DNA from: Candidatus Aenigmatarchaeota archaeon
GTDB lineage: Archaea > Aenigmatarchaeota > Aenigmatarchaeia > PWEA01 > JACQIF01
DNA length: 64,000 nt
Assembly (NCBI GenBank): GCA_016432325.1
Contig: CP066684.1
Coordinates: 265,018-329,017 of the forward strand
Direction of reading: 5' to 3'
The translations under genes were made by a program, and so were the position numbers. Position 1 is the stretch's first letter. Every line of letters begins with the position of its first letter. The notes beneath the pieces are model-generated. The model was not told where the DNA came from. It searched no databases and saw only the letters and a program-made list of their open reading frames with translations. Shown here piece by piece: positions 17,986 to 45,504 of the stretch.

Positions 17986-20598
17986 ATGGAACGCCAAGAA
18001 GTCAGGGCACAGATCAAAACTCTTGTAGAAGACTTCAAGGCAAACTATACTTCATACAAATCCCGCTCCGAAGCTGACATAGAGCAACTTGTGCTACGAC
18101 TCTTCAAGATTCTTGGTTGGACAGACGTCAACGACGTTTTCCAGCAAGTTAAGACGCACCGAGGCGAAAAACGAGGTAGAGCCGACTTCGCCTTCAAAAT
18201 CAATGATAGGACAGTTTTCTTTTTGGAAGTAAAGAAGATGGGCGTACCTTTGGATAAAGAGGCGGATAGACAGGTTATATCGTATGCTCTATCTCAGAGA
18301 ATACCGTTCGCCGTATCGACAAACTTCGAGGAATTAAAGCTCTTTTGTGTTGAAGCGTTCGATAAGAAAGATCAGGTTTTCAGAGTCTTCAGGTACGAAG
18401 ATTACTCGATCAAAGATGATTTGTTTCTTCTGTCGAAGGAGAGTTTCGCTTCGGGTAACACGTTGAAAGAAGCTGAAAGCGAGGGTCGACTGAAGAAGAG
18501 AGTAACCATCGACAAACCGCTTTTGGAAGACCTCATGCATATCCGCAGTCTCGTAGCAGGCGACATAGAAAAAAGTTACCCGGACAAATACGAACTCAAT
18601 GAGCGCGACGAAATAATTCAGAGAATAATAGACCGCTTGATTTTCATACGTCGGTGTGAGGATGTGGGCATGAACCCAGAGGGTCAAACGCTCGAAGAAA
18701 TCAAACATCTTTCAGACGAGAAAGCGTATCCTAAACTGAAACAACTCTTCGCTAAGTATAATGATGTCTACGATAGCGGCTTATTCTCGATTGGCACGGA
18801 TAATGATTGTGATAGAATAACGATCGATGGGTCTATCATTCACAAGCTTGTAGGATACCTCTATGAATCCAAGAACGGTCAGTATATTTACAACTTTGAC
18901 TGGATAGATGCCGACGTACTTGGACAAGTGTACGAACAATATCTCGGTAAAATACTCGCACAAACAAAATCAGGTAAAACGAAACTTAAGGAAGGACAAG
19001 CGCATCGTAAGGAACAGGGAATATACTATACTCCCACCTACATTGTCAATTACATTATTAAGAACACTGTTGGCGCTAAACTAAAAGAGAGGAAAATTAA
19101 CGTGAACGATATTTCGATACTCGATCCTGCTTGTGGGTCTGGATCATTTCTTATCAAGGCATTTGACGAGATGTATAACTATAGACGGGGTAAAGGCGGC
19201 ACGGATCAGCGTAAATTTGATACACAAGGCATTTACTCCATTAAAACCGAAATTCTTAAAAACAATATTTTCGGTGTCGATCTTGACAACAAAGCCGTGG
19301 AAATAGCTAAATTAAATCTACTCTTAAAGGCGGCAGAGAACGGACGCCGATTACCGAAGGAATTAGACGCTCACGTCAAGCGTGGTAATAGTATTATAGA
19401 TGATGAAAAAGTTGTGGGCGCCGATGCGTTCCGTTGGGAGAGTGAATTTACAGATATCGTAAAACAAGGTGGATTTGACATCATTATAGGCAATCCGCCT
19501 TATGGGGCAGAGTTGAAGGAAAACGAAAGGGAATACATTTCTCGGAAATATGAAACCGCGAAATCGTACAAAAATACAGCGCTTGTTTTCATAGAGAAAT
19601 CGATGAATCTATTAAAAGATGGAGGATACTTTGGAATGATTGTACCAAAGTCCTTGGCATATAGCCAAGCGTGGAAACCATGTAGAGACTTCATTAAGAA
19701 GGACATGATTTTGTTAGTTGATGTTAGCAAAGCCTTTGAAGATGTTTTATTGGAACAAGTTATATTCATTATACAAAAGGGCAGTGGCAAAAAGTCCTAC
19801 ATTGTAGAAAACATTGATACCGGCTCTAAATTTACTGTGGACAAATCATTCATAGATAAAATCGATTCCTTGATAGTTCATGACAGTAGAGAAGACTTCG
19901 AAGTGTTCAAACATCTTATGTCCTCTCCATTACAAATGAAGAGTGTTTCCAAAACAAGTCGTGGATTGCCGCTCCAGAAGTTTATAACCAAAAAGAAAAC
20001 ACCATATAAAATATTTCGTGGGGTCAACATTTCCCGCTATCACCTTGGGGATAGTACAGACTTCTTAGAGAAAATCGATGCTACAAATACAAAGGTTAAA
20101 CAGCTTCTTCAACCTAAGATAATTTCACAGAGAATAGTGGCTCATGTAACACGCCCAAAGGACCATATCATAATCATGTCTGCATTGGATGGAGAAGGAC
20201 AGTTAAATGTGGATACTGTAGAAAATACCACTCTAACCGATAAGAAATACAAGCTAGAGACTATTTTGGCTATAATGAACTCCGAATTGATTTCATGGTA
20301 TGCATACAGGTATATCTTCGGTAAAGCCATTAGAACTATGGATTTCGATGATTACTATGTTGGTAAAATACCTCTGCCTCATACATCTAAATCTGTTGAA
20401 ACTGCTCTAACCGAGAAGGTTTCAAGAATAAATGACCTTAACAAAAAAGTTCATCAGTTGGGCGATAAGAAAACGGCCGAGACTGCTAAGCTCGACGAAG
20501 AAGTCAAGAAGACTAATGCGGAGATAGACGAACTCGTCTACAAGATATACGGGGTAACGGACGCCGAGAAGAAGACTATTAAAGAAAGCTTAAATTAA
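17986..20598 (+). CDS. Type IIG (fused REase-MTase-TRD) restriction-modification enzyme, gamma-class N6-adenine methyltransferase
   Basis: 870 aa. HsdR_N-like N-terminus with PD-(D/E)xK (ADFAF...FLEVKK); motif X VLGQVYEQYL; GIYYTPTYIV; motif I ILDPACGSGSFL; motif IV IIGNPPYGAE; ~300-aa C-terminal target-recognition region. ~40% GC. Confidence 0.7.
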   Translation: MERQEVRAQIKTLVEDFKANYTSYKSRSEADIEQLVLRLFKILGWTDVNDVFQQVKTHRGEKRGRADFAFKINDRTVFFLEVKKMGVPLDKEADRQVISYALSQRIPFAVSTNFEELKLFCVEAFDKKDQVFRVFRYEDYSIKDDLFLLSKESFASGNTLKEAESEGRLKKRVTIDKPLLEDLMHIRSLVAGDIEKSYPDKYELNERDEIIQRIIDRLIFIRRCEDVGMNPEGQTLEEIKHLSDEKAYPKLKQLFAKYNDVYDSGLFSIGTDNDCDRITIDGSIIHKLVGYLYESKNGQYIYNFDWIDADVLGQVYEQYLGKILAQTKSGKTKLKEGQAHRKEQGIYYTPTYIVNYIIKNTVGAKLKERKINVNDISILDPACGSGSFLIKAFDEMYNYRRGKGGTDQRKFDTQGIYSIKTEILKNNIFGVDLDNKAVEIAKLNLLLKAAENGRRLPKELDAHVKRGNSIIDDEKVVGADAFRWESEFTDIVKQGGFDIIIGNPPYGAELKENEREYISRKYETAKSYKNTALVFIEKSMNLLKDGGYFGMIVPKSLAYSQAWKPCRDFIKKDMILLVDVSKAFEDVLLEQVIFIIQKGSGKKSYIVENIDTGSKFTVDKSFIDKIDSLIVHDSREDFEVFKHLMSSPLQMKSVSKTSRGLPLQKFITKKKTPYKIFRGVNISRYHLGDSTDFLEKIDATNTKVKQLLQPKIISQRIVAHVTRPKDHIIIMSALDGEGQLNVDTVENTTLTDKKYKLETILAIMNSELISWYAYRYIFGKAIRTMDFDDYYVGKIPLPHTSKSVETALTEKVSRINDLNKKVHQLGDKKTAETAKLDEEVKKTNAEIDELVYKIYGVTDAEKKTIKESLN

Positions 20599-20664
20599 CG
20601 TCTGAGACTTGACCCAATACACCATATGGAAAGGGTTTAATAGCTTTGTCCATTCACATTATAC

Positions 20665-21759
20665 ATGGTCAGGGATAGTCTAGAATTCTTTGATGCTGAC
20701 GGAGAATTTTTAAAAAGAATAGAGTCCGTCAAGTCAATTGGACCTACGCCCCGTAAGGTCATTCTCTTTATCCAAGATTCAGAAATGCCTTTTTTGAAAC
20801 TGATTAAGCAATGGATTCCTGCTAGATATGAAGGCACTATTTGTAAAACAGAAGAATTTGATAGATTCGACGTAGCGGAGCTTACTATAAAAAATAGAGA
20901 TTTAGAAGGCGCTTTATACAAATGTTCTCACTGTGGTCAAGAAATTCCCAAAGAAGAACTTTTTGAATATGGACAAAACATGCAGAACTTACTTGTATTC
21001 CCTAAAAATAGTCCCGTCTTTTTCTTGGTAACAAATAAAGGTTCCCATGAACTGGACGCCGATTTAGGCTTCTTCAAAGCACTTTATCCCTTCGTATCTC
21101 GTGTACGATTCCGTTCGTACCAACTAAAACAAATGCTAGACGTTCTTCCTAATAAAACCGATATAGTTATTTCAGAATACGTTGCTAAACGTTATTATGG
21201 CGAAAAAAAGACAATCGAACTTCACCAAAAGGTGGACGTTGATACGGCATTTCTTCAAGCGGCTAAGGAAAATACCTGGATTGACAGCATTCTTCTGGAA
21301 GTTGATGGAAAGAAAATACGATTGGCGCGAAACGGAAGAATACAATACTATCAGTCGTATCACTTTAGCAACATCTTCAGTCAACTGATTAAACCAATAC
21401 TGCATAACCTAACAGCAAACTATGAAAATGTTCTAAGAAATCGCTCTCGGACAATTGCTAACCCGGCGGCCAAACCTATAGTATTTAAAACGGAAAAACC
21501 AGTTTTTACTTCTCAGAATGCTGGTATCGAACTGATAAAACGACTTGGCCGCCTACGGGGAATAGAAATAGCACAAGTCAATAGCGACGACCAGATGCCG
21601 GAGTTGATGGTAAAAGATTACACGTCTGGAGCAAGCTACTCAATAGACGTCGTAGCCGAGAATATGATAGTTATGACACCACAGACAGGCGTACGAGAAA
21701 TTTCTCTTAATAGAGTCGTGAATAAAATACTAGAAGATTTTGACTGTGAGGTAATCTGA
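20665..21759 (+). CDS. Hypothetical protein (364 aa) with a CxxC pair, AT-rich cassette
   Basis: CSHCGQ motif; ~36% GC; its stop overlaps the next start (TGATG). Confidence 0.4.
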   Translation: MVRDSLEFFDADGEFLKRIESVKSIGPTPRKVILFIQDSEMPFLKLIKQWIPARYEGTICKTEEFDRFDVAELTIKNRDLEGALYKCSHCGQEIPKEELFEYGQNMQNLLVFPKNSPVFFLVTNKGSHELDADLGFFKALYPFVSRVRFRSYQLKQMLDVLPNKTDIVISEYVAKRYYGEKKTIELHQKVDVDTAFLQAAKENTWIDSILLEVDGKKIRLARNGRIQYYQSYHFSNIFSQLIKPILHNLTANYENVLRNRSRTIANPAAKPIVFKTEKPVFTSQNAGIELIKRLGRLRGIEIAQVNSDDQMPELMVKDYTSGASYSIDVVAENMIVMTPQTGVREISLNRVVNKILEDFDCEVI

Positions 21760-22889
21760 TGGTTGCTCCAAAACACACGAAAGATGATGTAGACAGTTAT
21801 CGGGAGGCCGTTTTGGCTAATATTGTTTTTAAAAAGTATTTGAAAGAAATATGGAATGTTGGATACGATCTATATTTCGGTGCTAGACTAGTCTATGATA
21901 AAGACAAACCAGCGGTAACGCCCGATTTGTTTCTTAAAGGTACTTCGAGTAATGATATTGTAGGGGATATTAAACGTTCTTTGCCGTCAAATTTCCCTAA
22001 CAGTTTGGAGTCCAAAAACTATATGGAATGGGCCAGGGGGGAAGGTGGAAAAGGTTTCGTTATGCAGATGTTGGATGTAAGTCTAACACAAAAGTTAAAG
22101 AAATATGATAGCGAATTTCTCAATTGTACGAACCCACATGATATTTTATTTATCCTGCACGAAAGAGCACAGAGAACATACATGCTCTGGAAGAGACATT
22201 TACCGTACATCCCACGAAACAATCTGGTTGGTCTACAATATCATGTTTCTAGAGGGTCTAGCGTCAAAACACTTAATATCGGAATACTAGACGGACAGTT
22301 CTCAGATCAGGGCTTAGGCGAATTCTTCAGAGATAACCCAATAGCTTGGCACTTTAACGAAGAATCCCAGCTAATCGGAGAATACAAAATTGCTGTAGTT
22401 GACGAGGGCCATCAGCCACCAAAAGAATATGTGATGCTCATTCTGTGGCAAAACATTTTTGATGAAATTCTGAGAAACAAATACTCAGAAAGTCTTTTGG
22501 ATAGAGTGAAAATACTAGAACAAGGATTAAATCCAGTTATAGTTGTGGATTTGGATACCATTATAGAATACCTTAGTAAATATTATATATTACCATATTA
22601 TGATACCGCCGACAACTCACAGGACACAAGGAGACAGTTCACGAGAAGCCTTGTAAAAGATGCAATGAACTCATTTACTGAAATTGATATAACCGATGTA
22701 ACGAAGGTAGACGGGGGAACAAATCCCGCGTATAAAATAGTCTATCAACCGCTGTCTAAAGGACAGGATGCCTTGCAAGTCTTAATAGACGCGTTGTCTG
22801 ATGCGGGAATTTTAGAAAAGGAAGTGGTCGATATCCCGAGACAGATTGATCTAACATCATTTACCGATAAAGACAGTGATACTCGATAG
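21759..22889 (+). CDS. Hypothetical protein (376 aa) with an N-terminal PD-(D/E)xK-like nuclease motif
   Basis: TPDLFLKGTSSNDIVGDIKR (PD...D-I-K); translationally coupled to the upstream ORF. Confidence 0.4.
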   Translation: MVAPKHTKDDVDSYREAVLANIVFKKYLKEIWNVGYDLYFGARLVYDKDKPAVTPDLFLKGTSSNDIVGDIKRSLPSNFPNSLESKNYMEWARGEGGKGFVMQMLDVSLTQKLKKYDSEFLNCTNPHDILFILHERAQRTYMLWKRHLPYIPRNNLVGLQYHVSRGSSVKTLNIGILDGQFSDQGLGEFFRDNPIAWHFNEESQLIGEYKIAVVDEGHQPPKEYVMLILWQNIFDEILRNKYSESLLDRVKILEQGLNPVIVVDLDTIIEYLSKYYILPYYDTADNSQDTRRQFTRSLVKDAMNSFTEIDITDVTKVDGGTNPAYKIVYQPLSKGQDALQVLIDALSDAGILEKEVVDIPRQIDLTSFTDKDSDTR

Positions 22890-23275
22890 AGTGTAGAGAG
22901 TTAGAGGAGTAGCCAATTGAAGTCCCAAAAATAAGGTATATAAACATCCTCACCAATCAATTATTCAATATGCTCCCCAGTCTTGTACGCCGGCTCGTCC
23001 GGCGGCAACACTGGGTTATTCTCTCTTTTCCTTGATGCATTCTAAGGCTTCTAGAAGGCTGTGTTTGACGCAACGACTAGACTACGAATTTCGATGTATC
23101 AAACAATTTAGATTTTATTCTAACTCCACCTTCTGCTTCCACCTGGGCCACTCGGTGATTCCCCCTTTCACTCGTAATTCTCCGTGCCTTGGAAATGTTG
23201 GTGGCCTGAACCAGAACCTTTCCTAATCTATGGACGTTAATCCAATCATCACTGTCCACGGGAAAAGTTACTGGG

Positions 23276-23674
23276 TTATTCATCTGTCTCACTCATTTTT
23301 CCTGCTTTTACAAACTTGTCAAAAACTCGTTGTACCTGCTCGCCAGAAAGGGCCAATTCTGTGGAGACAAAAAAGACGGATAGTTTCGTATTACCAGCAC
23401 TCTTTTCTCTCAATATTAGTTGTGTTATCTCCTTTTCTGCTTCCATATCACTTATCCTCCTGTCTTTAGTGATCGATTCGTGCATCCCATGCATTTCATG
23501 TTGCCTTCTCAATGAGACTACCTCTTGGCGAAGGAAATCAACCTCATCCTCAAGACTTCTCAGTCTCTGTTGTTGCGCCCTAAAAACAGGCAGAGGGATG
23601 GATAGACGCTCGAAAACGGTTTGTATAGGCTCGTCTTCTCCAACAATGTCTATTGCACGTCTGATGGTTGCCAT
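23276..23674 (-). CDS. Hypothetical coiled-coil protein (132 aa)
   Basis: AT-rich ORF downstream of the integrase on the same strand. Confidence 0.3.
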   Translation of the reverse strand: MATIRRAIDIVGEDEPIQTVFERLSIPLPVFRAQQQRLRSLEDEVDFLRQEVVSLRRQHEMHGMHESITKDRRISDMEAEKEITQLILREKSAGNTKLSVFFVSTELALSGEQVQRVFDKFVKAGKMSETDE

Positions 23675-23678
23675 ACAT

Positions 23679-23942
23679 TCACCTACTTATCATACTCTTT
23701 ACCTTTTGCAAAAACTCCGGATCTGGTGATTCTATGTGCAGTATTTTGTCTTCAACTTCCTTCTTGTTTTGGTGGCTCATTATCAATGGAATGGGCATGT
23801 TGTTTTTTACCTTTACCAGAACAATGCTCGCTGGCATTATATCTTTATCCATTTGAGATAGATTAGACGCGAATTCTTTATCAAAGAGATCCCCAAGGCC
23901 CACACCATGCAATCGCACGCTCTCTATTTGTTCCATGAACAC
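23679..23942 (-). CDS. Hypothetical protein (87 aa)
   Basis: ORF between the integrase and 23276-23674, same strand. Confidence 0.3.
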   Translation of the reverse strand: MFMEQIESVRLHGVGLGDLFDKEFASNLSQMDKDIMPASIVLVKVKNNMPIPLIMSHQNKKEVEDKILHIESPDPEFLQKVKSMISR

Positions 23943-24048
23943 TCACCGTATATTATTGGTGCTACAGCCACTTAAACTGAAGACGGGGTGGTTTTACATC
24001 ATTCCGAAGTCTTTATTTAAGGCTATGTATCATTGACCATAGTGTTTT

Positions 24049-24065
24049 ATATAACACTGTTATAT
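24049..24065. repeat. 17-bp perfect palindrome ATATAACACTGTTATAT (copy 3 of 4)
   Basis: Overlaps the integrase stop codon at the AT-to-GC compositional break. Confidence 0.6.
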
Positions 24066-25238
24066 TCTCTCCCTCATCCTCTCTTCCATCCTGTCCATGA
24101 GAGCCGTCACGAGCTCCTCGGATATAACGAAGCCCTTGTTGCTTTCCATCGTCTGCGCCTTCGCCTTCTCCGAAATCGGATGGCGGCATCGCACGCACCA
24201 GTTCCTGTCCATAGTATTAGACGTGCCGCAGACGCCGCACTCTTTCGGCCGCAGATGGCCGTTCGTCTCCTCCTTCTTCGGAACGAGGCCGTGAATCCTC
24301 AATATAGCCTCGTCCATCTGCGCACCGCTGAGATGGACATAGATTGCGGCCATCTTTGAAGCGCCGGTCCAACCAAGATAAGCCTTCATCTGCTGTTCGG
24401 TCAGCTCGGTGGCCAGCCGCGTCGCGGCCGTGTGGCGGAAGAGGTGTGGGTGCAGCCTTTTCCGATAGCCGCTGCGCTCCTTGATGCGCCTCAGCAGCGT
24501 TTTGAACGTCGAGTAGCTCATCGGTCTGCCGTAGTCCGTCAGCCACAGCGCGTCGTCGCCGTTTTTCGTCGGGTGGGATTCCAAGTAGGCGGACAGGGCT
24601 GGAATGGAGGAAACGATGCGCACGCGCCGCGGGCCGGTCTTGCCGCGGACGTGGATGACGCCGCCGTACTCGTCGAAGGCGGCGTCCTTGTATCTCATGG
24701 AGAGGAGTTCCCCTATCCGCACGCCGCTCTCCCAGAGGGTCCACAGCATGGCGCGGTCGCGCGCCGAACGCGCGTGACGCAGAAGCAGCCGCAGGTCGTC
24801 CTCGCTCACCAAATCCTCGGGAAGCTTTCTCTTGTTCGAGGGCTCGTTCGTCTTTATCCATCGAACCTCCGGCGGGATTTCCTCGTCGTTGCCACGCAGC
24901 CACTTGAAGAAGCGTTTGATGCACGCCCGCTGATCGACCTTCGTTCGCTCTGTCCAGTCGCGCTTCTCCTGTATGCGGCTGACGAGTTCCATCAGATCGT
25001 CCTTGTCCATCTCATCGAAGTTCTTGTGCGCGAGGCGGCCGATGTTGGTCATGCGGATGGCGTAGAAGACCTGGCGATAGACACTGCCCCCGCCGACGCC
25101 GAACTGCCTTATGAACTTGAGAAGCAACTCCCTGTTGGGCTCTGTTATCCGCCCGTCCGTCCGCAGGCGGCGCATCGCCGACTCAAGGCGGTTGTCTATG
25201 TTGTAGATGTCGTGGACTTCAAGACTCTGCTGCGCCAT
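24060..25238 (-). CDS. int: Tyrosine recombinase / phage-type integrase
   Basis: 392 aa; C-terminal catalytic region HLFRHTAATRLA...LGWTGASKMAAIYVHL with the R..H..R..Y residues. Confidence 0.8.
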   Translation of the reverse strand: MAQQSLEVHDIYNIDNRLESAMRRLRTDGRITEPNRELLLKFIRQFGVGGGSVYRQVFYAIRMTNIGRLAHKNFDEMDKDDLMELVSRIQEKRDWTERTKVDQRACIKRFFKWLRGNDEEIPPEVRWIKTNEPSNKRKLPEDLVSEDDLRLLLRHARSARDRAMLWTLWESGVRIGELLSMRYKDAAFDEYGGVIHVRGKTGPRRVRIVSSIPALSAYLESHPTKNGDDALWLTDYGRPMSYSTFKTLLRRIKERSGYRKRLHPHLFRHTAATRLATELTEQQMKAYLGWTGASKMAAIYVHLSGAQMDEAILRIHGLVPKKEETNGHLRPKECGVCGTSNTMDRNWCVRCRHPISEKAKAQTMESNKGFVISEELVTALMDRMEERMRERI

Positions 25239-28022: not shown

Positions 28023-28223
28023 ATGTTCGTAAAGGTTCTGTTCCAGAAGAAGGAAACCGAGGTAGAGGTCCCCGCGAACGCCAAGGTAGCCGACGCCCTG
28101 AAGGCCGCTGGGATATCCGTTCAAACAGTGATACCAAGGCGCAATGGTTCTGTGATAACCGACGAGGATTCTGTCAAGGAAGGCGACGTCATAGACGCGT
28201 TGCGCATTGTTTCGGGTGGTTAG
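28023..28223 (+). CDS. MoaD/ThiS-fold sulfur-carrier protein (TtuB/SAMP-like) with a C-terminal GG
   Basis: 66 aa ending ...RIVSGG; beta-grasp-like sequence; sits upstream of ttuA. Confidence 0.5.
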   Translation: MFVKVLFQKKETEVEVPANAKVADALKAAGISVQTVIPRRNGSVITDEDSVKEGDVIDALRIVSGG

Positions 28224-28281
28224 AATACTGTTCATGAAACCTGCGGTTTCAAGATTCCCTCGCGGGGCTTGGTGAAGTGCG

Positions 28282-28467
28282 ATGGAATGCCAACGATGCG
28301 GGAAGAATACAATTCTGTTCCGCGTAAAAGACGAAGGACTCTGCGAGTCGTGCATACGCAAAGATCCCAAACTCGAGCTCGTCCCATACTCAAAAGAGGA
28401 AGAACGCAGATTGGGCGCGCTTATGAAACATCCCGCGAAATGGTACAAGGAGGTAAGAACGAAATGA
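28282..28467 (+). CDS. Possible small zinc-ribbon protein (61 aa)
   Basis: MECQRCGKNT...CESC with two CxxC pairs; lies in the ttuB-ttuA spacer in another frame. Confidence 0.2.
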   Translation: MECQRCGKNTILFRVKDEGLCESCIRKDPKLELVPYSKEEERRLGALMKHPAKWYKEVRTK

Positions 28468-29417
28468 ACTGTTCGGCTTGCGAAAAGGATGCGGTATACC
28501 ACAGAAAGTACGAAGGACGCGCGCTCTGCAAGGAACATTTCTCCGAGGACCTTCTGACCAAAATACGCAGGACGATACGCACCGAGCAACTCATCAAGCA
28601 CGGCGACAAGATATGCGTCGCGCTCTCCGGTGGGAAGGACTCCTCTCTTACGCTTTACGTGCTTTCTGATTTGCTCAAGACGTGGCCTAATGTTGAACTG
28701 TTCGCATTAGCTGTCGACGAAGGCATAGAAGGCTATCGGGACAAGAGTCTCGAATCCGCGAAGGAGCTGTGCGCGCGGCTGGGCGTACGGCTTCACGTCG
28801 TCTCGTACAAGGATGAGTTCGGCAAGACCATGGACCAGGTTTTGCACGGGAAGAAGGACTTTCAGAACGCGGACTCCGAGGGTTCCGCACGCGGCAACGT
28901 GCGCGCCTGCACGTACTGCGGCGTTTTCCGCAGAAACATCCTCAACAAGTATGCGCGCGAGCTCGGCGCGACAAAAGTTGCGACAGGCCACAACCTCGAC
29001 GACGAGCTGCAAAGCGTGTTCATGGACTTCCTGAAAGGAGACGTCAACCGTCTGGTACGCATGGGAACGACGATGAATGCGCATGAAAATGATCTTATAC
29101 TACGCGTAAAGCCGTTGCGAAACGTGCCGGAACGCGAGATAGGACTGTTCTGCATCCTGAACGGACTGCCTCACCACGAGGACGAGTGCCCGAACGCGCA
29201 CGACTCGCTGCGGTTCGACGTGCGCGACTTCCTGAACAGGATGGAAGAGCGTTATCCAGGAACGAAGCACAACGCGTCCGCAACGTTTGAGAAGGTACTG
29301 CCTGCGCTGCGCGAGTCATTTATGAAACAAATGCCTTCCCTGCGCGCGTGCGAGAAGTGCGGAGAGCTGTGCTCAGGCGAAACGTGCAAGGCATGCGAAT
29401 TGAAGGCGACGATTTAG
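28464..29417 (+). CDS. ttuA: tRNA 2-thiolation PP-loop ATPase (TtuA/NcsA/Ncs6 family)
   Basis: GGAGGT Shine-Dalgarno 5 nt before the ATG at 28464; N-terminal Zn finger CSACEK...C..H; PP-loop ALSGGKDSS; CTYCGVFRR; C-terminal CEKCGELCSGETCKAC. Confidence 0.75.
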   Translation: MNCSACEKDAVYHRKYEGRALCKEHFSEDLLTKIRRTIRTEQLIKHGDKICVALSGGKDSSLTLYVLSDLLKTWPNVELFALAVDEGIEGYRDKSLESAKELCARLGVRLHVVSYKDEFGKTMDQVLHGKKDFQNADSEGSARGNVRACTYCGVFRRNILNKYARELGATKVATGHNLDDELQSVFMDFLKGDVNRLVRMGTTMNAHENDLILRVKPLRNVPEREIGLFCILNGLPHHEDECPNAHDSLRFDVRDFLNRMEERYPGTKHNASATFEKVLPALRESFMKQMPSLRACEKCGELCSGETCKACELKATI

Positions 29418-30668: not shown

Positions 30669-31328
30669 ATGACGCGGGGGGCGTTCATCGCATTCGAAGG
30701 AATGGACGGAAGCGGCAAGAGCACTGTCATGGAAAAGACTATGTTCGAGCTCAGTGGCAACGGCTATAGTATCAGATGGACCGCGGAGCCCACTCACCAA
30801 GGGACGGGCAAGCACATACGTGATAGGCTCAACGCCAAGTGGCCTCCCAAAGGGACGATGAGCGATCTCGCGGCCGCGGCGGTCTATACGCGTCTTTTCT
30901 TCGCGGACAGGATCGAACATAATGCGCTGGATATCCAACCCAACCTCTCAAAAAGAATCAACATCTTCACAGACCGTTCCTACGGTTCTACGGTTGCTTA
31001 CCAAAGCGCGCAGGGCTATCCAATAGAGAAGCTCGCGGGGGAAGTCGAGTGGCTCGTTGGCAAAAGTATGATAGAGCGCCCCGACCTGATGGTTGTGCTT
31101 GATGTGAGCGTGCCGACAGCTCTTGCAAGGCTTGCAAAGACGGGCAAGAAACCAGACAAGTTCGAAGACCCTGAATTCCTGCCCAAGCTGCACGAGGCCT
31201 ATGGAAACCTGCCCAAATACCTGCCGAACGACAGAATAGAATTCGTCGACGCCGAGAGGCCCTTGAAAGAGGTCGTGGTGGACGTCTGTTCAAGAATACG
31301 CCCGCTGCTCGTGAAGAAAGCCGCCTGA
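30669..31328 (+). CDS. tmk: Thymidylate kinase
   Basis: P-loop FIAFEGMDGSGKST; DRS/DRY region; LID region. Confidence 0.85.
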   Translation: MTRGAFIAFEGMDGSGKSTVMEKTMFELSGNGYSIRWTAEPTHQGTGKHIRDRLNAKWPPKGTMSDLAAAAVYTRLFFADRIEHNALDIQPNLSKRINIFTDRSYGSTVAYQSAQGYPIEKLAGEVEWLVGKSMIERPDLMVVLDVSVPTALARLAKTGKKPDKFEDPEFLPKLHEAYGNLPKYLPNDRIEFVDAERPLKEVVVDVCSRIRPLLVKKAA

Positions 31329-32894
31329 TTATTTGGCGTCGGCCTCGGTCTCTCCCGAGTAGTATGATATCTTGTTCAGGTCCATGTCCCAGACAGGCTT
31401 GCCGCAGAAGAGCTTGCCTTGGTTGCACATGGGGCCGACGCCCGCGCCTTTCCTGAGATGGCACGGCGGGCCCAGGAAGTTCCCTATCAACGGCGTCACT
31501 TCCCTTACTTGGTTCACTTCGTCGCGGTTTATCTTCCACTCCTCTTCCTGAGTGCGCAGGCACGTGCGCAACTCCCACTTGTGACGGGCGCCAAACAGGT
31601 CCGTGGTCTCCTCTATTCGCAAAGCCGTCGCGTTGGGAAGAAGGTACGCGACGAACTCCCTGCTCTCTCCGTTATCCAGAAGATAGCGGACATCTTCCCA
31701 AGTTCCTTCCATGGCATCGTTGAATATCTGAAGCGCTTCTGCGTTGCCTGCTATCAGTTCCGGCGCAACCGTGTCGGGTTCGCGCGTGAGGACGTCCTGC
31801 AGCCGCGGCCTTATTCCTTTCGTCGCCCTGTGCCTCTGCCCCTGCGAGTCGGCTGTGTGGCTGAGCTTCTTGCGGAACGTGTACGCGACCTGTCCCATCG
31901 CGTACGAGGCCGGGTCCATGTGCTCGAGTTCTGCGGGGTGCAGGAGCGTGCGGTTATTGGCGGGGTTCATCACCAGGCCTATCAGCTGTTCGTCCGTCGC
32001 CACGCCGTCAGCCGCGCCCAAGTGAATGCGGACCGCATCGGCAAGGATGCGATCGCCGTCAGGCGTGTGCGTGACGAGTTTGGAACGGTAAGGATTGAGT
32101 TTCTTGTCGAACTGTGCGTTGTAAGCCGCGACGTCGACGTCGCCCAAGAGCTTGCGGCCCTTGAACGAGGGGCCGTCCTGCCTCTGCAACGGCGCTCCTA
32201 TATGATCGAAGAGTTCTGGCTCTGTCTTCCTTGCCTCGGCCATCATCTGTTCGACAACGGTCTGCGCCTCCCACGGCACGTTGGTGAGCTTGGGGCTGAG
32301 CGCCAGCCTGTTGAGCGTCGAAAGATTCACCGTATAGTACATCCCGGAAAGCGCCGCGATGGGCAGAACATAGCGCGCCGTCTCGATGGCCTGCTTGGGC
32401 ACGAGCTGGGTGTCCCGCTTGGAGAGCTTCCCTCTGGCCTCGGATTTGATGCCTTTCAACTCCTCTTCGAGAATGGGAATCAGCGCAGCATAAGCGTCCC
32501 ATTGGGCGCGGATTCTCTTTCGCGTCCTGTCCCTGCTGTCAGAGTCGTGAAACGGAGGTATTCGTACTGTCGCGGTCCTGTTAGATACGTATCTCTGGCT
32601 TATCTGGTCTGTAACGTACGTAGACGGAAGATGGAAGAAATCGTGGATGAGGTTTCTGGAGACGTTCTCCAGAGCGAACGTAAAAGTCGGGTGGCCGAAC
32701 ACCTGGTGGCCGGAGTTAAACGTATCCTGTACGACTTTCTTCAGCGCCTCGTCCGGGACCTCGTCCGGAAGGACTATCCTGTTCGCAGCCCGCGGAGAAT
32801 AGCAGCTCTTTGCCGATGCGCCTGCGATTCTTAGAGGTTCGTTGGGATATGCGATCAGCTCTACCTTCGACGGCGGATCTAGGACAGACGACAT
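31329..32894 (-). CDS. thyX: FAD-dependent thymidylate synthase ThyX-like, apparently tandem-duplicated (two ThyX-like halves)
   Basis: 521 aa. The N-half has GHQVFGHPTFTFALENVSRNLIHDFFHL...ISQRYV and ARYVLP; it is ThyX-like but RHR is replaced by FHL. The C-half carries QRHRATKG and ARHKWELR...EEEWKI. Confidence 0.5.
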   Translation of the reverse strand: MSSVLDPPSKVELIAYPNEPLRIAGASAKSCYSPRAANRIVLPDEVPDEALKKVVQDTFNSGHQVFGHPTFTFALENVSRNLIHDFFHLPSTYVTDQISQRYVSNRTATVRIPPFHDSDSRDRTRKRIRAQWDAYAALIPILEEELKGIKSEARGKLSKRDTQLVPKQAIETARYVLPIAALSGMYYTVNLSTLNRLALSPKLTNVPWEAQTVVEQMMAEARKTEPELFDHIGAPLQRQDGPSFKGRKLLGDVDVAAYNAQFDKKLNPYRSKLVTHTPDGDRILADAVRIHLGAADGVATDEQLIGLVMNPANNRTLLHPAELEHMDPASYAMGQVAYTFRKKLSHTADSQGQRHRATKGIRPRLQDVLTREPDTVAPELIAGNAEALQIFNDAMEGTWEDVRYLLDNGESREFVAYLLPNATALRIEETTDLFGARHKWELRTCLRTQEEEWKINRDEVNQVREVTPLIGNFLGPPCHLRKGAGVGPMCNQGKLFCGKPVWDMDLNKISYYSGETEADAK

Positions 32895-33023
32895 CCGATA
32901 CTCCCCACTGGCATTCGCTTATAAAGCGGCGAAAGGTTAAATACTCTTCTTCAGGAGTGTGCCGACAGATGAAGTGCATGAAACCACGTTTCATACTTCC
33001 CGCGAACCATTGGTGATGACCGC

Positions 33024-41981: not shown

Positions 41982-42437
41982 GTGCCCGGTCTGAACTGTC
42001 CTTATTGCGCCCACACGGAAACGCGTGTCGTAGACAAACGCGAATCCGAGGACGAATCGACGCGCCGCAGGCGCGAATGCACGTCGTGCGTCAAGCGTTT
42101 CACCACGTACGAGCGCGTGGAGTCGCTTGACATGACGGTGGTAAAGCGGAACGGCGCCAAGGAACCCTTTATGAGGGAGAAGATTCTGATGGGCATGAAA
42201 AGGGCGTGCGAGAAGAGGCCTATAACGGACGCCGAAATCGAAGAAGCAGTCGACTCCGTGGAACGCGTGCTCCGCAGGCGCAAATCCACAGAGGTCAAGA
42301 GCACGGACATCGGGGACCTTGTGCTGAGAAAGCTCAAAGCGCTCGACGAAGTCGCATACATAAGGTTCGCGTCCGTATACCAGTCATTCGAAAGCGCCAA
42401 GGCCTTCGCAAAAGAAGTGGCGGCGCTGAAAATATAA
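41982..42437 (+). CDS. nrdR: Transcriptional repressor NrdR (zinc ribbon + ATP-cone)
   Basis: GTG start; CPYC...CTSC zinc ribbon; ATP-cone VVKRNGAKEPFMREKI...VAYIRFASVYQSFES. Confidence 0.85.
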   Translation: MPGLNCPYCAHTETRVVDKRESEDESTRRRRECTSCVKRFTTYERVESLDMTVVKRNGAKEPFMREKILMGMKRACEKRPITDAEIEEAVDSVERVLRRRKSTEVKSTDIGDLVLRKLKALDEVAYIRFASVYQSFESAKAFAKEVAALKI

Positions 42438-42443
42438 GGGGGG

Positions 42444-45400
42444 ATGTTCATGAAAGCACAGGCGGCGCAGGCCGTGAAAAGCGCCGAGAAGGCGGGGAGC
42501 GGTTTGCGAATCGACAGGCGTTACACTCAACAGGGCGCGAGCGTTTTTGACCAGATCGAATGGACCACGCGCTCGTCCATCATAGCAGAACCGGACGGCA
42601 CCGTCGTCTTCAAATTCGACAAGGTTGAGGTCCCTGCGGCCTGGTCCCAGCTCGCGACAGACATTCTCGCCTCGAAATATCTCAAGCGCGCGCAAGTGAA
42701 AACCCAGGATGGCACCGTAGGCTCGGAAACCAGCGCGCGGCAGGTCGTCTCGCGAATAGCGACCACGTTCCGCTGGTTCGGTGAGAAGTACGGCTATTTC
42801 GCGTCCGCAGACGACGCGCAGGCGTTCGAGGACGAACTGACGTATCTGCTCATAACACAGCGCGCGGCCTTCAACAGCCCTGTCTGGTTCAACGTCGGCC
42901 ACTGGCACTATCACAACATAAACCAGGACGGCGACAACTGGGCATGGGACATGGAGAACGGTCGCGTCTATCAGGAGAACAACTACTACGCCCGCCCGCA
43001 AGGAGCGGCGTGCTTCATCCAGAGATGCGAGGACTGGATAAACGGACCCATGGGTATAATGGACCTCGTGGACAAGGAAGCGCGTCTCTTCAAGGGCGGC
43101 TCCGGCACAGGCACGAACTTCTCGCGCGTACGCGGCAGAGACGAACCGCTGTCGGGAGGGGGCGTTTCGAGCGGACTGATGAGCTTCCTTAAGATTCTCG
43201 ACACCAACGCAGGCAGCATCAAGTCAGGAGGAACCACGCGCCGCGCGGCCAAGATGGTCATCCTCGACGCGGACCACCCTGACATAGAGGAGTTCGTCGG
43301 GTGGAAAGCGCACGAGGAAAAGAAGGCCAAGCTGCTGTTGCAGGCCGGGATCGGCCTCGATTCTATGGGCCGCCCGGACTTCAACGGCGAGGCGTATACT
43401 ACCGTTTCCGGCCAGAACTCCAACAATTCCGTGCGCGTTACAGACGAATTCATGAACGCCATTCGCGAAGACAAGGAGTGGAATCTCATCGCGCGCAGGA
43501 GCAAGAAGACATGGAAGACCGTTCGTGCGAAGGAACTCTGGAACAAGATTTCCCGATGCGCATGGGAGTGCGCGGACCCCGGAGTGCAATACGACGATAC
43601 GATACAGAGATGGCACACCTGCAAGAACACGGACAAGATATACGCGACAAACCCGTGCTCGGAGTTTGTGTTCCTTGACGAAACGTCATGCAATCTCGCG
43701 TCCGTGAACCTTCTGAAGTTTTTCGACGATACGAAATTCGACGTGGACGCGTACAGGTACGCGTGCCGCGTGATGTTCATCGCGCAGGAGATAGGCGTCG
43801 ACCTCTTCTCCTACCCGAGCCGCACGATTGCGGAGACCACGCACAAGACGCGGCCGCTCGGTCTCGGTTACGCGAATCTCGGAACGCTTTTGATGTGCAT
43901 GGGCCTGCCGTACGACAGCGCAGAAGGCCGCGCTATGGCAGGCGCGCTGACCGCGCTCATGACAGGAGAGGCCTATCTTACGTCCGTTGAGATGGCCCGC
44001 GTCAAAGGCCCTTTCGCACTGTACGAGGAGAACAGGGAGCCGATGCTCGGCGTAATGAGAATGCACCGCGACTCAACGTACGAGCTCTTCCGCACAGGAA
44101 GCCCGATACCCGAAAAGATGGCCGGCGCGATGCCGGAGAAATGGTTCGAGGATATAGCAAAGACCGCTGTGGAAGTCTGGGACGATGTCGTCGAGGAAGG
44201 GAGCAAGCACGGCTTCAGGAACGCGCAGGCGACGGTCCTCGCGCCCACAGGAACGATAGCGCTGCTGATGGACTGCGACACCACAGGCGTCGAACCGGAC
44301 TTTAGCCTCGTCAAGTGGAAGAAGCTCGCTGGCGGAGGATATTTCCGCATCATCAACCAGTCTGTTCCACGCGCGCTGCGCAACCTCGGCTATACGAACG
44401 AACAGGTCAAGGTGATAGAAGAGCACGTGCTGGGCAAGAGGACGGCCGACGGGACCGTGCTCGAACTGGGCAAGGAGACGATAGAAGGCGCTCCGCACGT
44501 ACGCACGGAACACTACGCGGTCTTCGACTGCGCCAACAGGTGCGGCGACGGCGTCCGCTTCATAGCCCCTGAAGGCCACATACATATGATGGCCGCGTCA
44601 CAGCCTTTCCTCTCGGGCGCGATATCGAAGACCGTGAATCTCCCTTCTGACGTTACGGTGGAAGACGTGGCACGCACGTACGAACTGGGATGGAACCTCG
44701 GCCTCAAGGCCATAGCGCTCTACCGCGACGGCTGTAAAGCATCGCAACCGCTCAACGCCAAGGCCGCCATAAAGGCCGAAGCGAAGGAAGAGGGGCCTAC
44801 GTGGGGAGAGATGGTACGCCTCCCAAAGTTCACGGACAACATCATCAAGCGCGAAGTCGCCGTGATGGACCCGAAGCTCGGCAGAATAAAGATGCACATA
44901 ATCTTCTGCGAGGACGACCGCGGAAGGCCCATGGAAGTTTTCATGGCTGTCGGCCGCAACGCCTCGTCGGTCAACGAGTTCTGCCGCGACCTTGGAATCG
45001 CATGGTCCAAGCAGCTGCAGCTCGGCCGCCCTGCCAAGGATCTTGCCCTTGACATGGTTGGAGAGGTTGGGGCAATCGCAGGCATGACAGACCACCCGCT
45101 CTTCAAGACGTGCATGTCTGTGAAGGACCTCGTCGGCAAGATGACCCTCTACGAGTACTACGGAAAGACCGATTTCATAAATCCCGAAGTTCTGGAGACG
45201 TACCAGAAGTCGCTGAACTATGTCAAGCCCCGCTGGCAGGTCCTTGAGGAACTGCACCACCTGCGTTCGCTGCGGGAAGCGCGAAAGGAAAAGCCGCTGA
45301 CCGCGTTCACAACGCCTGCGGCGGCAAAGGACAGCGTGGACCCGCACGAAATAGCGAAGAAGTTCATGGCTGACGCGCCTGACTGCGACGTCTGCGGCTT

Positions 45401-45467
45401 CAAGACCGTGCGCAACGCCGCGTGCTTCAAGTGCCTTAACTGCGGGAACAGCATGGGATGTTCGTGA
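42444..45467 (+). CDS. nrdJ: Ribonucleoside-diphosphate/triphosphate reductase, class II (adenosylcobalamin-dependent), large form
   Basis: 1007 aa; NPCSEFVFLDETSCNLASVNL active-site loop and other class II hallmarks; 6-bp spacer after nrdR. Confidence 0.85.
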   Translation: MFMKAQAAQAVKSAEKAGSGLRIDRRYTQQGASVFDQIEWTTRSSIIAEPDGTVVFKFDKVEVPAAWSQLATDILASKYLKRAQVKTQDGTVGSETSARQVVSRIATTFRWFGEKYGYFASADDAQAFEDELTYLLITQRAAFNSPVWFNVGHWHYHNINQDGDNWAWDMENGRVYQENNYYARPQGAACFIQRCEDWINGPMGIMDLVDKEARLFKGGSGTGTNFSRVRGRDEPLSGGGVSSGLMSFLKILDTNAGSIKSGGTTRRAAKMVILDADHPDIEEFVGWKAHEEKKAKLLLQAGIGLDSMGRPDFNGEAYTTVSGQNSNNSVRVTDEFMNAIREDKEWNLIARRSKKTWKTVRAKELWNKISRCAWECADPGVQYDDTIQRWHTCKNTDKIYATNPCSEFVFLDETSCNLASVNLLKFFDDTKFDVDAYRYACRVMFIAQEIGVDLFSYPSRTIAETTHKTRPLGLGYANLGTLLMCMGLPYDSAEGRAMAGALTALMTGEAYLTSVEMARVKGPFALYEENREPMLGVMRMHRDSTYELFRTGSPIPEKMAGAMPEKWFEDIAKTAVEVWDDVVEEGSKHGFRNAQATVLAPTGTIALLMDCDTTGVEPDFSLVKWKKLAGGGYFRIINQSVPRALRNLGYTNEQVKVIEEHVLGKRTADGTVLELGKETIEGAPHVRTEHYAVFDCANRCGDGVRFIAPEGHIHMMAASQPFLSGAISKTVNLPSDVTVEDVARTYELGWNLGLKAIALYRDGCKASQPLNAKAAIKAEAKEEGPTWGEMVRLPKFTDNIIKREVAVMDPKLGRIKMHIIFCEDDRGRPMEVFMAVGRNASSVNEFCRDLGIAWSKQLQLGRPAKDLALDMVGEVGAIAGMTDHPLFKTCMSVKDLVGKMTLYEYYGKTDFINPEVLETYQKSLNYVKPRWQVLEELHHLRSLREARKEKPLTAFTTPAAAKDSVDPHEIAKKFMADAPDCDVCGFKTVRNAACFKCLNCGNSMGCS

Positions 45468-45504
45468 ACTCAATCCTTTTATTTCGGCTGAACGAACTAT
45501 ATCC

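What the first reader, a model, noticed from the sequence alone, without database searches (positions are those of the whole stretch)
31329..32894. 521-aa ThyX-like protein that appears to be a tandem fusion of two ThyX domains with complementary degenerate motifs
The N-half has the ThyX core (GH..F.H..FTF..E.VSR ... SQRYV, ARYVLP), but the RHR motif reads FHL. The C-half retains RHR (QRHRATKG) and an AQWEI-like ARHKWELR...EEEWKI. Canonical ThyX is ~220-260 aa and forms homotetramers with inter-subunit active sites, so a fused pseudo-dimer with one competent motif set per half would be an unusual architecture. It sits next to tmk in convergent orientation.
Basis: partly seen in the sequence, partly recalled or inferred. 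Interest (0 to 1): 0.55.

Follow-up and report, generated by a model that had tools for sequence, protein, structure and literature searches.

The report
Tandem-duplicated ThyX thymidylate synthase, archaeal member
This gene encodes a double-length flavin-dependent thymidylate synthase made of two fused ThyX domains that have split the active-site residues between them; it is a divergent archaeal member of a widespread family that is poorly studied and has no solved structure, not a one-off oddity.

Summary
ORF 31329..32894 (-) encodes 521 aa. Each half matches the Pfam Thy1 profile end to end (E 1.6e-24 and 3.1e-17), and an AlphaFold model of the C-half alone hits only ThyX crystal structures. 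It is not an artefact: four independent assemblies give the identical protein. The architecture is not rare. Co-linear 500-540 aa homologues occur in at least 553 species genomes, both bacterial and archaeal, and form 187 clusters at 50% identity. A 2009 paper already noted an uncharacterised "domain-duplicated" ThyX. Using published subunit roles in M. tuberculosis ThyX, the C-half keeps only the FAD/RHR role (R354-H355-R356, R443). The N-half keeps only the dUMP-loop role (R80, S99-Q-R101-Y102) and the FAD-phosphate Arg (R196). This predicts a dimer that mimics the canonical tetramer with two of four sites intact. That step is inferred, not shown. Four nearly invariant cysteines (C445, C478, C490, C497), absent from the aligned M. 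tuberculosis ThyX sequence, suggest an undescribed metal site. Context fits real dTMP synthesis: tmk abuts the gene, and NrdR plus class II ribonucleotide reductases lie 10 kb away. Verdict: a new, divergent Aenigmarchaeota member of a known but structurally uncharacterised kind.

The parts
31329..32894 (-). Complete tandem ThyX ORF, 521 aa
   Evidence: ORF list. Pfam Thy1 E 1.2e-42 with two stretches. Identical to NCBI 'MAG: FAD-dependent thymidylate synthase [Candidatus Aenigmatarchaeota archaeon]'. Same product in four independent assemblies. AF2 model pLDDT 88.6, pTM 0.89.
32217..32861 (-). N-terminal ThyX domain (aa 12-226). It keeps the dUMP-loop role and the FAD-phosphate Arg, and has lost RHR.
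   Evidence: Pfam Thy1 1-190/191, E 1.6e-24. hhalign vs Mtb ThyX prob 97.8%, E 7.9e-13.
32622..32633 (-). Degenerate RHR position of the N-half: H88-L-P-S (family consensus H-S/A-H/Y-P). No arginine is present.
   Evidence: Alignments to Mtb R95-H96-R97. Column counts.
32589..32600 (-). Retained substrate loop S99-Q100-R101-Y102 (= Mtb S105-Q106-R107-Y108). R80 (= Mtb R87) lies upstream of it.
   Evidence: Invariant in 73/73 genome homologues and 108/109 cluster representatives (Y102: 97/109). Roles from PMC6514825.
32082..32216 (-). Inter-domain linker (aa 227-271), partly helical
   Evidence: Lies between the two Pfam matches. DSSP helices 242-250 and 255-266 in the model.
31491..32081 (-). 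C-terminal ThyX domain (aa 272-468). It keeps the FAD/RHR role and has lost the dUMP loop.
   Evidence: Pfam Thy1 1-190/191, E 3.1e-17. hhalign vs Mtb prob 93.9%. Foldseek on the C-half model hits ThyX chains only.
31827..31835 (-). Retained ThyX motif R354-H355-R356 (= Mtb R95-H96-R97), preceded by Q351 (= PBCV-1/T. maritima Q75)
   Evidence: R354 and R356 in 109/109, H355 in 104/109, Q351 in 109/109. Ungapped spacing to S345/H346 equals the Mtb S86/R87 spacing.
31566..31568 (-). R443, equivalent of Mtb R199 / T. maritima R174 (binds the uracil of dUMP)
   Evidence: HMMER and hhalign alignments. 108/109 conserved.
31389..31562 (-). Cys4 signature: C445 (two residues after R443) plus the C-terminal extension GPPC478-x11-C490-x6-C497-G-x-P-V-W502. 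Putative metal site.
   Evidence: C445, C478, C490 and C497 are invariant in 73/73 genome homologues and kept in 105-107 of 109 representatives. The Mtb ThyX sequence aligned here has S201 at the C445 position, and the alignable region ends before the extension. The metal has not been identified.
32919..32925 (-). TTTATAA, an archaeal TATA-box-like element centred about 28 nt upstream of the ATG
   Evidence: Read directly from the sequence. Not tested further.
30669..31328 (+). tmk (thymidylate kinase), convergent, stop codons abutting
   Evidence: Pfam Thymidylate_kin 4.2e-31. Sequence at the junction. Same pairing in all four assemblies.

Best explanation
The gene encodes a working flavin-dependent thymidylate synthase of the domain-duplicated (tandem) ThyX type. 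An ancient internal duplication fused two ThyX domains, and these then divided the canonical roles between them. The C-half kept the residues that hold FAD and the uracil side of dUMP: the RHR motif, Q351 and R443. The N-half kept the residues that close over dUMP (R80, S99-Q-R101-Y102), the phosphate-binding R174, the FAD-phosphate Arg (R196) and the H53-type histidine (H63). In canonical ThyX each site is built from three subunits, called A, B and C. The A-role residues now exist only in C-halves, and the B- and C-role residues only in N-halves. A homodimer of the fused chain should therefore reproduce the canonical tetramer with subunits A and D replaced by C-halves and subunits B and C by N-halves. 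Such a dimer would carry two intact FAD/dUMP sites and two dead ones. Chemistry at the intact sites should be the usual ThyX reaction: FAD is reduced, methylene passes from the folate-type donor to flavin N5 and then to dUMP C5, and tmk next door phosphorylates the dTMP. Shown here: the two domains, the residue partition, family-wide conservation, and that the gene is real. Inferred: dimer formation, two FAD per dimer, activity, and the role of the Cys4 motif (most likely a structural or redox metal site that ties the C-terminal extension to the loop after R443).
For: Each half matches the full Thy1 profile. The C-half model has the ThyX fold. The full-length model is confident, with pTM 0.89. 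Subunit roles in M. tuberculosis ThyX come from PMC6514825: subunit A supplies RHR 95-97 and R199, subunit B supplies S71 and R190, and subunit C supplies R87, S105, R107 and Y108. The same split is reported for PBCV-1 ThyX in PMC3498832: Q75 and R182 from monomer A, S88 and Q89 from monomer B. Mapping by HMMER and hhalign gives the following. In the N-half, R80, S99, R101, Y102, R174 and R196 are invariant or nearly so, and there is no Arg at the RHR position. In the C-half, R354, H355, R356, Q351 and R443 are invariant. H346 replaces R87, L or F replaces R190, and A or L replaces R172. The S/R/Y loop is gone. All of these residues are intact in the window protein. The family is large and deeply branched, at 187 clusters of 50% identity. 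A COG table in PMC5954106 lists 6 of 6 Acidobacteria genomes with ThyX and none with ThyA; the same holds for 6 of 6 Chlamydiae and 4 of 4 Thaumarchaeota. The scan here finds the tandem form in Acidobacteriota and Thaumarchaeota. This argues that the tandem form is the cell's working thymidylate synthase. Two homologues carry inteins, which are typical of essential replication-related enzymes. Local context: tmk is adjacent, and NrdR, two class II RNR genes and a cobalamin adenosyltransferase lie at 41982-47849.
Against: No activity, cofactor content or oligomeric state has been measured for this protein, and no experimental characterisation or solved structure of any tandem member was found with these tools. 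The window protein scores below the TIGR02170 equivalog cut-off (80.7 vs 87.9 bits). It also departs from the family consensus at many positions that are 90% or more conserved. One is a single-residue deletion of the Thr/Ser that binds FAD phosphate (present in 107/109 representatives). Another is L199 where most members have R or K. The alignment of the N-half around the R199-equivalent is uncertain because of indels. Only 64 kb of the genome was seen, so a second thymidylate synthase cannot be excluded.
Confidence: 0.78

Rival explanations
1. The tandem protein is not a dTMP synthase. It is a ThyX-derived enzyme with another pyrimidine substrate or chemistry, as PolB is a UMP/dUMP methylase, or it is an inactive or regulatory relic in this reduced archaeal genome.
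For: It scores below the TIGR02170 equivalog cut-off. It is a long branch, at most 43% identical to any full-length relative. It has lost the FAD-phosphate Thr and several consensus residues. PolB is among the structural matches. The extra Cys4 motif could signal different redox chemistry.
Against: Every residue named in PMC6514825 as contacting dUMP (equivalents of R87, S105, R107, Y108, R95 and R199), plus the equivalent of M. tuberculosis R172 / T. maritima R147, is retained somewhere in the chain and is invariant across the family. The phyla carrying this form are listed with ThyX and without ThyA. tmk is the immediate neighbour. Full-length conservation across 187 clusters argues against a relic.
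Confidence: 0.1
2. Both halves are independently competent. The enzyme has four working sites per dimer, or works as a monomeric pseudo-dimer, and the apparent loss of motifs comes from misaligning divergent loops.
For: The 'degenerate' segments are themselves strongly conserved: N-half L-H-s-H-P-F-Y-N-S-E-Q, C-half R362-P363, and invariant H88 and H346. This suggests they still do something. hhalign of N against C aligned the motif region differently.
Against: No Arg occurs at any of the three RHR columns of the N-half in 73 sequences. The C-half lacks S, R and Y at the loop columns in an ungapped alignment to M. tuberculosis ThyX. H53- and H59-type histidines are conserved in the N-half (108/109, 105/109) but not in the C-half (38/109 each).
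Confidence: 0.07
3. The 521-aa ORF is an artefact: a frameshift, a chimeric assembly, or two adjacent thyX genes read as one.
For: None found.
Against: Four separate sequencing runs assembled the identical product with the same neighbours. At least 553 genomes encode co-linear homologues covering 93-98% of the query. The linker is modelled with helices at good confidence.
Confidence: 0.01

Closest known systems
Domain-duplicated ThyX, noted by Valas & Bourne 2009 in Chloroflexi (PMC3224940) and annotated in databases simply as 'FAD-dependent thymidylate synthase'
   Same: Same architecture: two Thy1 domains in one chain of about 500-540 aa. The window protein aligns over 93-98% of its length with hundreds of such proteins (E down to 1e-103) and shares all family-invariant residues, including the Cys4 signature.
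   Different: It is a long-branch member, at most 43% identical to any full-length relative and 56% to a partial Aenigmarchaeota sequence. It lacks the Thr/Ser at the S71 position and departs from consensus in the N-half pseudo-RHR loop. The 2009 paper states that the duplicated form 'has not been characterized'. I did not fetch Chloroflexi sequences to confirm they belong to this same clade.
Canonical single-domain ThyX / FDTS (T. maritima TM0449, M. tuberculosis Rv2754c, PBCV-1 A674R, H. pylori)
   Same: Same fold in both halves (Foldseek TM 0.62-0.80). The same catalytic residue set is present once per chain. The reaction presumably uses the same FAD- and folate-dependent chemistry.
   Different: Canonical enzymes are 190-260 aa homotetramers with four identical sites, each chain carrying the full RHR...S.R motif (PMC6514825, PMC3498832). 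Here the motif is split between two fused domains, a linker of about 45 aa and a Cys-rich C-terminal extension are added, and only two sites per pseudo-tetramer are predicted.
Chlamydia trachomatis ThyX (CT632; Griffin et al. 2005, J Biol Chem 280:5456)
   Same: From my memory only: the chlamydial enzyme is about 529 aa, roughly double the usual length, and has been shown to be an active FAD-dependent thymidylate synthase. If that is right, it is the biochemically characterised representative of the tandem type. PMC6171736 confirms that chlamydial ThyX sequences are so aberrant that they were left out of the original ThyX phylogeny.
   Different: Membership of CT632 in this family was not tested here.
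Thermus thermophilus Thy1 with an extra C-terminal domain (PDB 6J61)
   Same: A ThyX that carries an appended C-terminal segment. It is the top structural match for the C-half.
   Different: It has a single ThyX domain. It matches only part of the family profile at the sequence level (E 9.3e-6), and I did not compare the C-terminal extensions directly.

Membership tests
ThyX / FDTS superfamily (Pfam PF02511 Thy1) | Thy1 domain detectable by profile above the gathering score | tested here: met
   146.4 bits against a cut-off of 24.8. Each half alone scores 87.2 and 63.4 bits over profile 1-190/191.
ThyX / FDTS superfamily (Pfam PF02511 Thy1) | ThyX fold (central alpha/beta domain with flanking helical domains) | tested here: met
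   Full model pLDDT 88.6. Foldseek hits ThyX chains only, TM 0.62-0.80. C-half alone: TM 0.62-0.73, E 1.7e-9.
Canonical ThyX (TIGR02170 equivalog) | Complete ThyX motif RHR-x7-S-x-R within a single domain | tested here: not met
   The N-half has H88-L-P with S99-Q-R101. The C-half has R354-H-R356 but no S/R/Y loop. The motif is complete only when the two halves are combined.
Canonical ThyX (TIGR02170 equivalog) | Score at or above the curated equivalog cut-off | tested here: not met
   80.7 bits against a cut-off of 87.9.
Canonical ThyX (TIGR02170 equivalog) | Homotetramer of chains about 190-260 aa long with four equivalent three-subunit active sites | not testable with these tools
   The chain is 521 aa. 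No multimer prediction or model coordinates were available. The residue partition predicts a dimer with two sites (inference).
Canonical ThyX (TIGR02170 equivalog) | Bound FAD and NAD(P)H/CH2-H4folate-dependent conversion of dUMP to dTMP | not testable with these tools
   Needs biochemistry. All dUMP- and FAD-contact residues named in PMC6514825 are present once per chain, except the S71 equivalent.
Tandem (domain-duplicated) ThyX family | Two Thy1 domains in one polypeptide of about 500-540 aa, co-linear with family members over nearly the full length | tested here: met
   The listed top 120 of 2489 homologues with E <= 0.001 are 497-542 aa and cover 92-98% of the query. 553 genome loci were confirmed.
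Tandem (domain-duplicated) ThyX family | Family-invariant residue set (H63, R80, S99, Q100, R101, R174, R196; Q351, R354, R356, R443, Q449, E451) | tested here: met
   All are present in the query. Each is conserved in 105-109 of 109 representatives.
Tandem (domain-duplicated) ThyX family | Cys4 signature C-x32-C-x11-C-x6-C with the C-terminal extension | tested here: met
   C445, C478, C490 and C497 are present. 73/73 genome homologues and 105-107 of 109 representatives keep them.

The most novel reading that the evidence does not exclude
The four near-invariant cysteines are C445, two residues after the uracil-binding R443, and C478, C490 and C497 in the C-terminal extension. They may ligate an iron-sulfur cluster next to the flavin site. 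That would give tandem ThyX enzymes a built-in electron entry point, for example from ferredoxin or a Rieske-type partner, instead of or in addition to direct NAD(P)H oxidation. It would be a redox-wired, half-of-the-sites thymidylate synthase not described for any ThyX in the papers I could search. The more modest version is a structural zinc site that locks the extension over the dead pseudo-site.
Probability: 0.15. Interest if true: 0.7.

Novelty: new member of a known kind. Interest (0 to 1): 0.35.

Why it matters
ThyX is an antibacterial drug target and a model for flavin-mediated methylene transfer, yet all 21 distinct ThyX sequences found in the PDB are single-domain. The tandem form appears to be the version used by whole phyla, including Acidobacteriota, Thaumarchaeota and several DPANN lineages. 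It offers a natural experiment in which a D2 homotetramer has become a pseudo-heterotetramer with a clean division of labour between duplicated domains. That makes the long-standing question of which subunit does what in the three-subunit ThyX site directly testable by single mutations in one polypeptide. The conserved Cys4 motif is a concrete, cheap-to-test lead for a new cofactor. For this genome the practical message is ordinary: the organism makes its own dTMP with thyX plus tmk.

Tried and rejected
1. Literature. Nine full-text searches (ThyX with tandem, duplication, fused, two domains, pseudo-tetramer, Chlamydia/CT632, 4Fe-4S, kDa/tetramer) found only one passing mention of a duplicated ThyX (PMC3224940). 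Reviews PMC5954106 and PMC6514825 describe only homotetramers. Griffin 2005 and Leduc 2004 are not held, so the Chlamydia parallel stays a recollection.

2. Gene neighbourhood. I looked for a conserved partner, such as a reductase or ferredoxin, among 49 upstream and 49 downstream neighbours of the homologues. Nothing is conserved. Rieske proteins follow the gene in 5 of 49 loci, and tmk in none.

3. Cys4 geometry. I wanted Cys-Cys distances and the N/C interface from the AlphaFold model. Coordinates are not exposed to the sandbox, so this was not possible.

4. hhalign of N-half against C-half confirms homology (93%, E 3.5e-7). It misplaces the motif region, aligning SQRY to QRHR. I rejected that local alignment because both halves align without this shift to M. 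tuberculosis ThyX.

5. The genome-contig scan did not return the window's own genome, because the query differs in the back-translated patterns (DSQGQRHR vs DSQDQRHR).

6. Rfam and tRNA scans of the window found nothing.

7. Recent horizontal transfer from a specific bacterial clade. The NJ tree shows a long, deep branch grouping only with unnamed representatives P0122 and P0127. Another Aenigmarchaeota MAG has a 56% identical partial copy, so there is no sign of recent transfer.
Full report

Pfam Thy1 (PF02511) matches the whole protein at E 1.2e-42 in two stretches. I cut the protein at residue 244 and scanned the pieces separately. The N-piece matched profile positions 1-190 of 191 at E 1.6e-24, and the C-piece matched positions 1-190 of 191 at E 3.1e-17. 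Profile-profile comparison of the two halves, using family alignments, gives 93% probability, E 3.5e-7 and 17% identity. The duplication is therefore real but ancient.

An AlphaFold2 model of the full chain is confident (pLDDT 88.6, pTM 0.89) and shows the same order of strands and helices twice. All of its listed best PDB matches are single ThyX-family chains (including the ThyX homologue PolB), with TM 0.62-0.80 on the target. Its 50 best Foldseek matches are all ThyX chains (E 1.7e-9 and weaker, TM 0.62-0.73).

The other refutation was a frameshift or assembly artefact. It is excluded because four independent sequencing runs assembled the identical 521-aa product with the same neighbours. 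tmk (Pfam Thymidylate_kin, 4.2e-31) sits at 30669..31328 on the plus strand, and its TGA directly abuts the thyX stop codon. A TTTATAA element lies about 28 nt upstream of the thyX ATG, in the 129-bp divergent intergenic region. That fits an archaeal promoter with a short or absent leader, though this is read from the sequence only.

**2. How unusual is the architecture?**

It is not unusual. The exact protein is in NCBI as 'MAG: FAD-dependent thymidylate synthase [Candidatus Aenigmatarchaeota archaeon]'. The word-indexed search found 2489 homologues. The best 120 are all 497-542 aa, cover 92-98% of the query at 35-40% identity, and are named from Acidobacteria, Vicinamibacteria, Thermoanaerobaculia and Methylomirabilota.

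These come from many bacterial phyla:
- Acidobacteriota
- Kryptoniota
- Myxococcota
- Elusimicrobiota
- Verrucomicrobia
- Planctomycetia

They also come from MAGs labelled as archaeal: Thaumarchaeota, Thermoplasmatota, Undinarchaeota and Halobacteriales.

An exhaustive HMMER pass over 1.84 billion cluster representatives gave 187 clusters at E <= 1e-30. The nearest relatives are a partial Aenigmarchaeota protein (56% identity, MBI4017722.1) and an unnamed 533-aa protein (43%). On a neighbour-joining tree the query sits on a long, deep branch.

[quoted passage not shown] Reviews describe ThyX only as a homotetramer (PMC5954106, PMC6514825). No tandem ThyX is in the PDB. The family profile's best hits are single-domain M. 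tuberculosis ThyX, matched in two separate stretches (E 3.1e-19).

**3. Are the motifs complementary?**

PMC6514825 assigns the residues of one M. tuberculosis ThyX active site to three subunits:
- Subunit A gives RHR 95-97, which holds FAD and also contacts dUMP through R95, and gives R199, which binds dUMP.
- Subunit B gives S71 and R190, which bind the FAD phosphate and ribityl groups.
- Subunit C gives R87, S105, R107 and the lid residue Y108, which bind dUMP.

PMC3498832 gives the same split for PBCV-1 ThyX: Q75 and R182 from one monomer, S88 and Q89 from the other.

I mapped these residues through HMMER and hhalign alignments of each half to M. tuberculosis ThyX residues 62-226. I then counted them in 73 genome homologues and 109 full-length cluster representatives.

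N-half:
- R80 (= R87): 108/109.
- S99, Q100 and R101 (= S105-R107): 108/109 each.
- Y102: 97/109.
- R174 (= R172, T. maritima R147): 109/109.
- R196 (= R190): 107/109.
- Thr/Ser at the S71 position: 107/109.
- H63 (= T. maritima H53): 108/109.
- No arginine occurs at any RHR column. The family reads H-S/A-H/Y and the query reads H-L-P.

C-half:
- Q351: 109/109.
- R354 and R356: 109/109 each. H355: 104/109.
- R443 (= R199): 108/109.
- Q449 and E451: 105/109 each.
- H346 replaces R87, L or F replaces R190, and A or L replaces R172.
- The S/R/Y loop is absent in an ungapped alignment.
- The H53- and H59-type histidines are kept in only 38/109.

So the A-role survives only in the C-half, and the B- and C-roles survive only in the N-half. 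The window protein keeps every one of these residues except the S71-position Thr. That residue is deleted here and in its Aenigmarchaeota relative.

**4. Mechanism**

This section is inference from section 3 plus the published geometry. A canonical site needs A, B and C roles from three different chains. The only arrangement that gives intact sites is a dimer of fused chains mimicking the D2 tetramer, with C-halves in positions A and D and N-halves in positions B and C. This yields two complete FAD/dUMP sites, each made of one C-half and two N-halves, and two dead pseudo-sites. It predicts one FAD per 521-aa chain.

The 'dead' segments are nevertheless strongly conserved: N-half L-H-s-H-P-F-Y-N-S-E-Q, C-half S-R-P, and invariant H88 and H346. 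They probably retain a structural or new role, which I cannot name.

Evidence that the family is the working thymidylate synthase:
- A COG table lists 6/6 Acidobacteria, 6/6 Chlamydiae and 4/4 Thaumarchaeota genomes with ThyX and none with ThyA (PMC5954106).
- Two homologues carry inteins.
- In this window thyX abuts tmk and lies 10 kb from NrdR, two class II ribonucleotide reductase genes and a cobalamin adenosyltransferase.

Gene neighbourhood is otherwise not conserved across 98 neighbours of homologues. Rieske proteins follow the gene in 5 of 49 loci, and tmk in none.

**5.

Four cysteines are as conserved as the catalytic residues: 73/73 genome homologues and 105-107 of 109 representatives. 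They are C445, two residues after R443 where M. tuberculosis ThyX has S201, and C478, C490 and C497. The last three lie in a C-terminal extension, GPPC-x11-C-x6-CG-x-PVW, beyond the region that aligns to M. tuberculosis ThyX. The extension is modelled with lower confidence (pLDDT 57-88), as is common for metal-binding loops modelled without the metal.

I could not measure distances because coordinates are not exposed. A search for ThyX together with 4Fe-4S found nothing relevant. The spacing (C-x32-C-x11-C-x6-C, no CxxC pair) fits either a structural Zn site or an Fe-S cluster. I treat it as a putative metal site of unknown identity.

**6. Comparison with known families**

The protein works like, and belongs to, the ThyX/FDTS superfamily. 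It fails two tests of the canonical single-domain equivalog. TIGR02170 gives 80.7 bits against a cut-off of 87.9, and there is no complete RHR...S.R motif within one domain. It passes all three tests of the tandem family: architecture and co-linearity, the invariant residue set, and the Cys4 signature.

From memory only, Chlamydia trachomatis ThyX (CT632, about 529 aa; Griffin et al. 2005) is a characterised enzyme of double length. I could not retrieve the sequence or the paper to test this. PMC6171736 confirms only that chlamydial ThyX is too aberrant to have been included in the original phylogeny.

**7. Verdict**

The claim of rarity is wrong. The gene is a divergent Aenigmarchaeota member of a known, widespread, structurally uncharacterised tandem ThyX family. 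The clean three-role partition and the Cys4 motif are, as far as my searches go, undescribed, and they are cheap to test. They are properties of the family, not of this locus. Interest 0.35; novelty: new member of a known kind.

Noticed in passing
window 31389-31562 (-), aa C445, C478, C490, C497: Four cysteines are conserved as strongly as the catalytic residues across the tandem ThyX family (73/73 and 105-107 of 109). Three lie in a C-terminal extension beyond the region that aligns to M. tuberculosis ThyX. This is a putative Zn or Fe-S site, and I found no description of it in the searchable literature.
   Followed up: partly
window about 32700-32708 (-), between Q64 and V65: The query has a one-residue deletion of the Thr/Ser that corresponds to the FAD-phosphate ligand S71 of M. 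tuberculosis ThyX (T55 in T. maritima). That residue is present in 107/109 family representatives. The other Aenigmarchaeota homologue, P0121, shares the deletion.
   Followed up: partly
window 17986-25238: A low-GC island (0.38-0.41 against about 0.56 elsewhere). It carries an 870-aa Eco57I/MmeI-like type IIG restriction-modification enzyme (17986-20598), two ORFs with no Pfam match (20665-22889) and a tyrosine integrase (24060-25238, -). It is probably an integrated mobile element. ARAGORN (run with bacterial settings) found no tRNA gene in the window to mark an attachment site.
   Followed up: partly
window 41982-47849 (+): A deoxynucleotide-synthesis cluster. It holds an NrdR-like repressor (Zn-ribbon plus ATP-cone), two adjacent ribonucleotide reductase large-chain genes (1007 aa with a class II B12 N-domain, and 603 aa) and a cobalamin adenosyltransferase. 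To my recollection NrdR is mainly bacterial. The 1007-aa RNR is long enough to hold an insertion, which I did not check.
   Followed up: no
window 12392-13216 (-): A 274-aa ORF with a Swt1-like HEPN domain, inside a second low-GC patch (0.45 at 12-14 kb). It is a possible toxin or defence gene.
   Followed up: no
window 28023-29417 (+): A small ThiS/MoaD-like ORF (66 aa, weak Pfam hit on record) lies just upstream of a TtuA-type tRNA 2-thiouridine synthetase (LIM_N plus PP-loop). This is a likely sulfur-carrier and thiolase pair.
   Followed up: no
homologues P0161 (821 aa) and P0180 (840 aa): Two tandem ThyX proteins carry an intein (Pfam Intein_splicing, residues about 111-408) inserted in the N-terminal ThyX domain.
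   Followed up: partly
loci L001-L080, gene downstream of thyX: A Rieske [2Fe-2S] protein is the immediate downstream neighbour in 5 of 49 loci, and DUF2400 in 3 of 49. The association is weak and possibly lineage-specific. It might be relevant if the Cys4 site is redox-active.
   Followed up: no
window 1-64000: No Rfam family reached its gathering score, and ARAGORN (bacterial settings) found no tRNA gene in 64 kb.
   Followed up: yes
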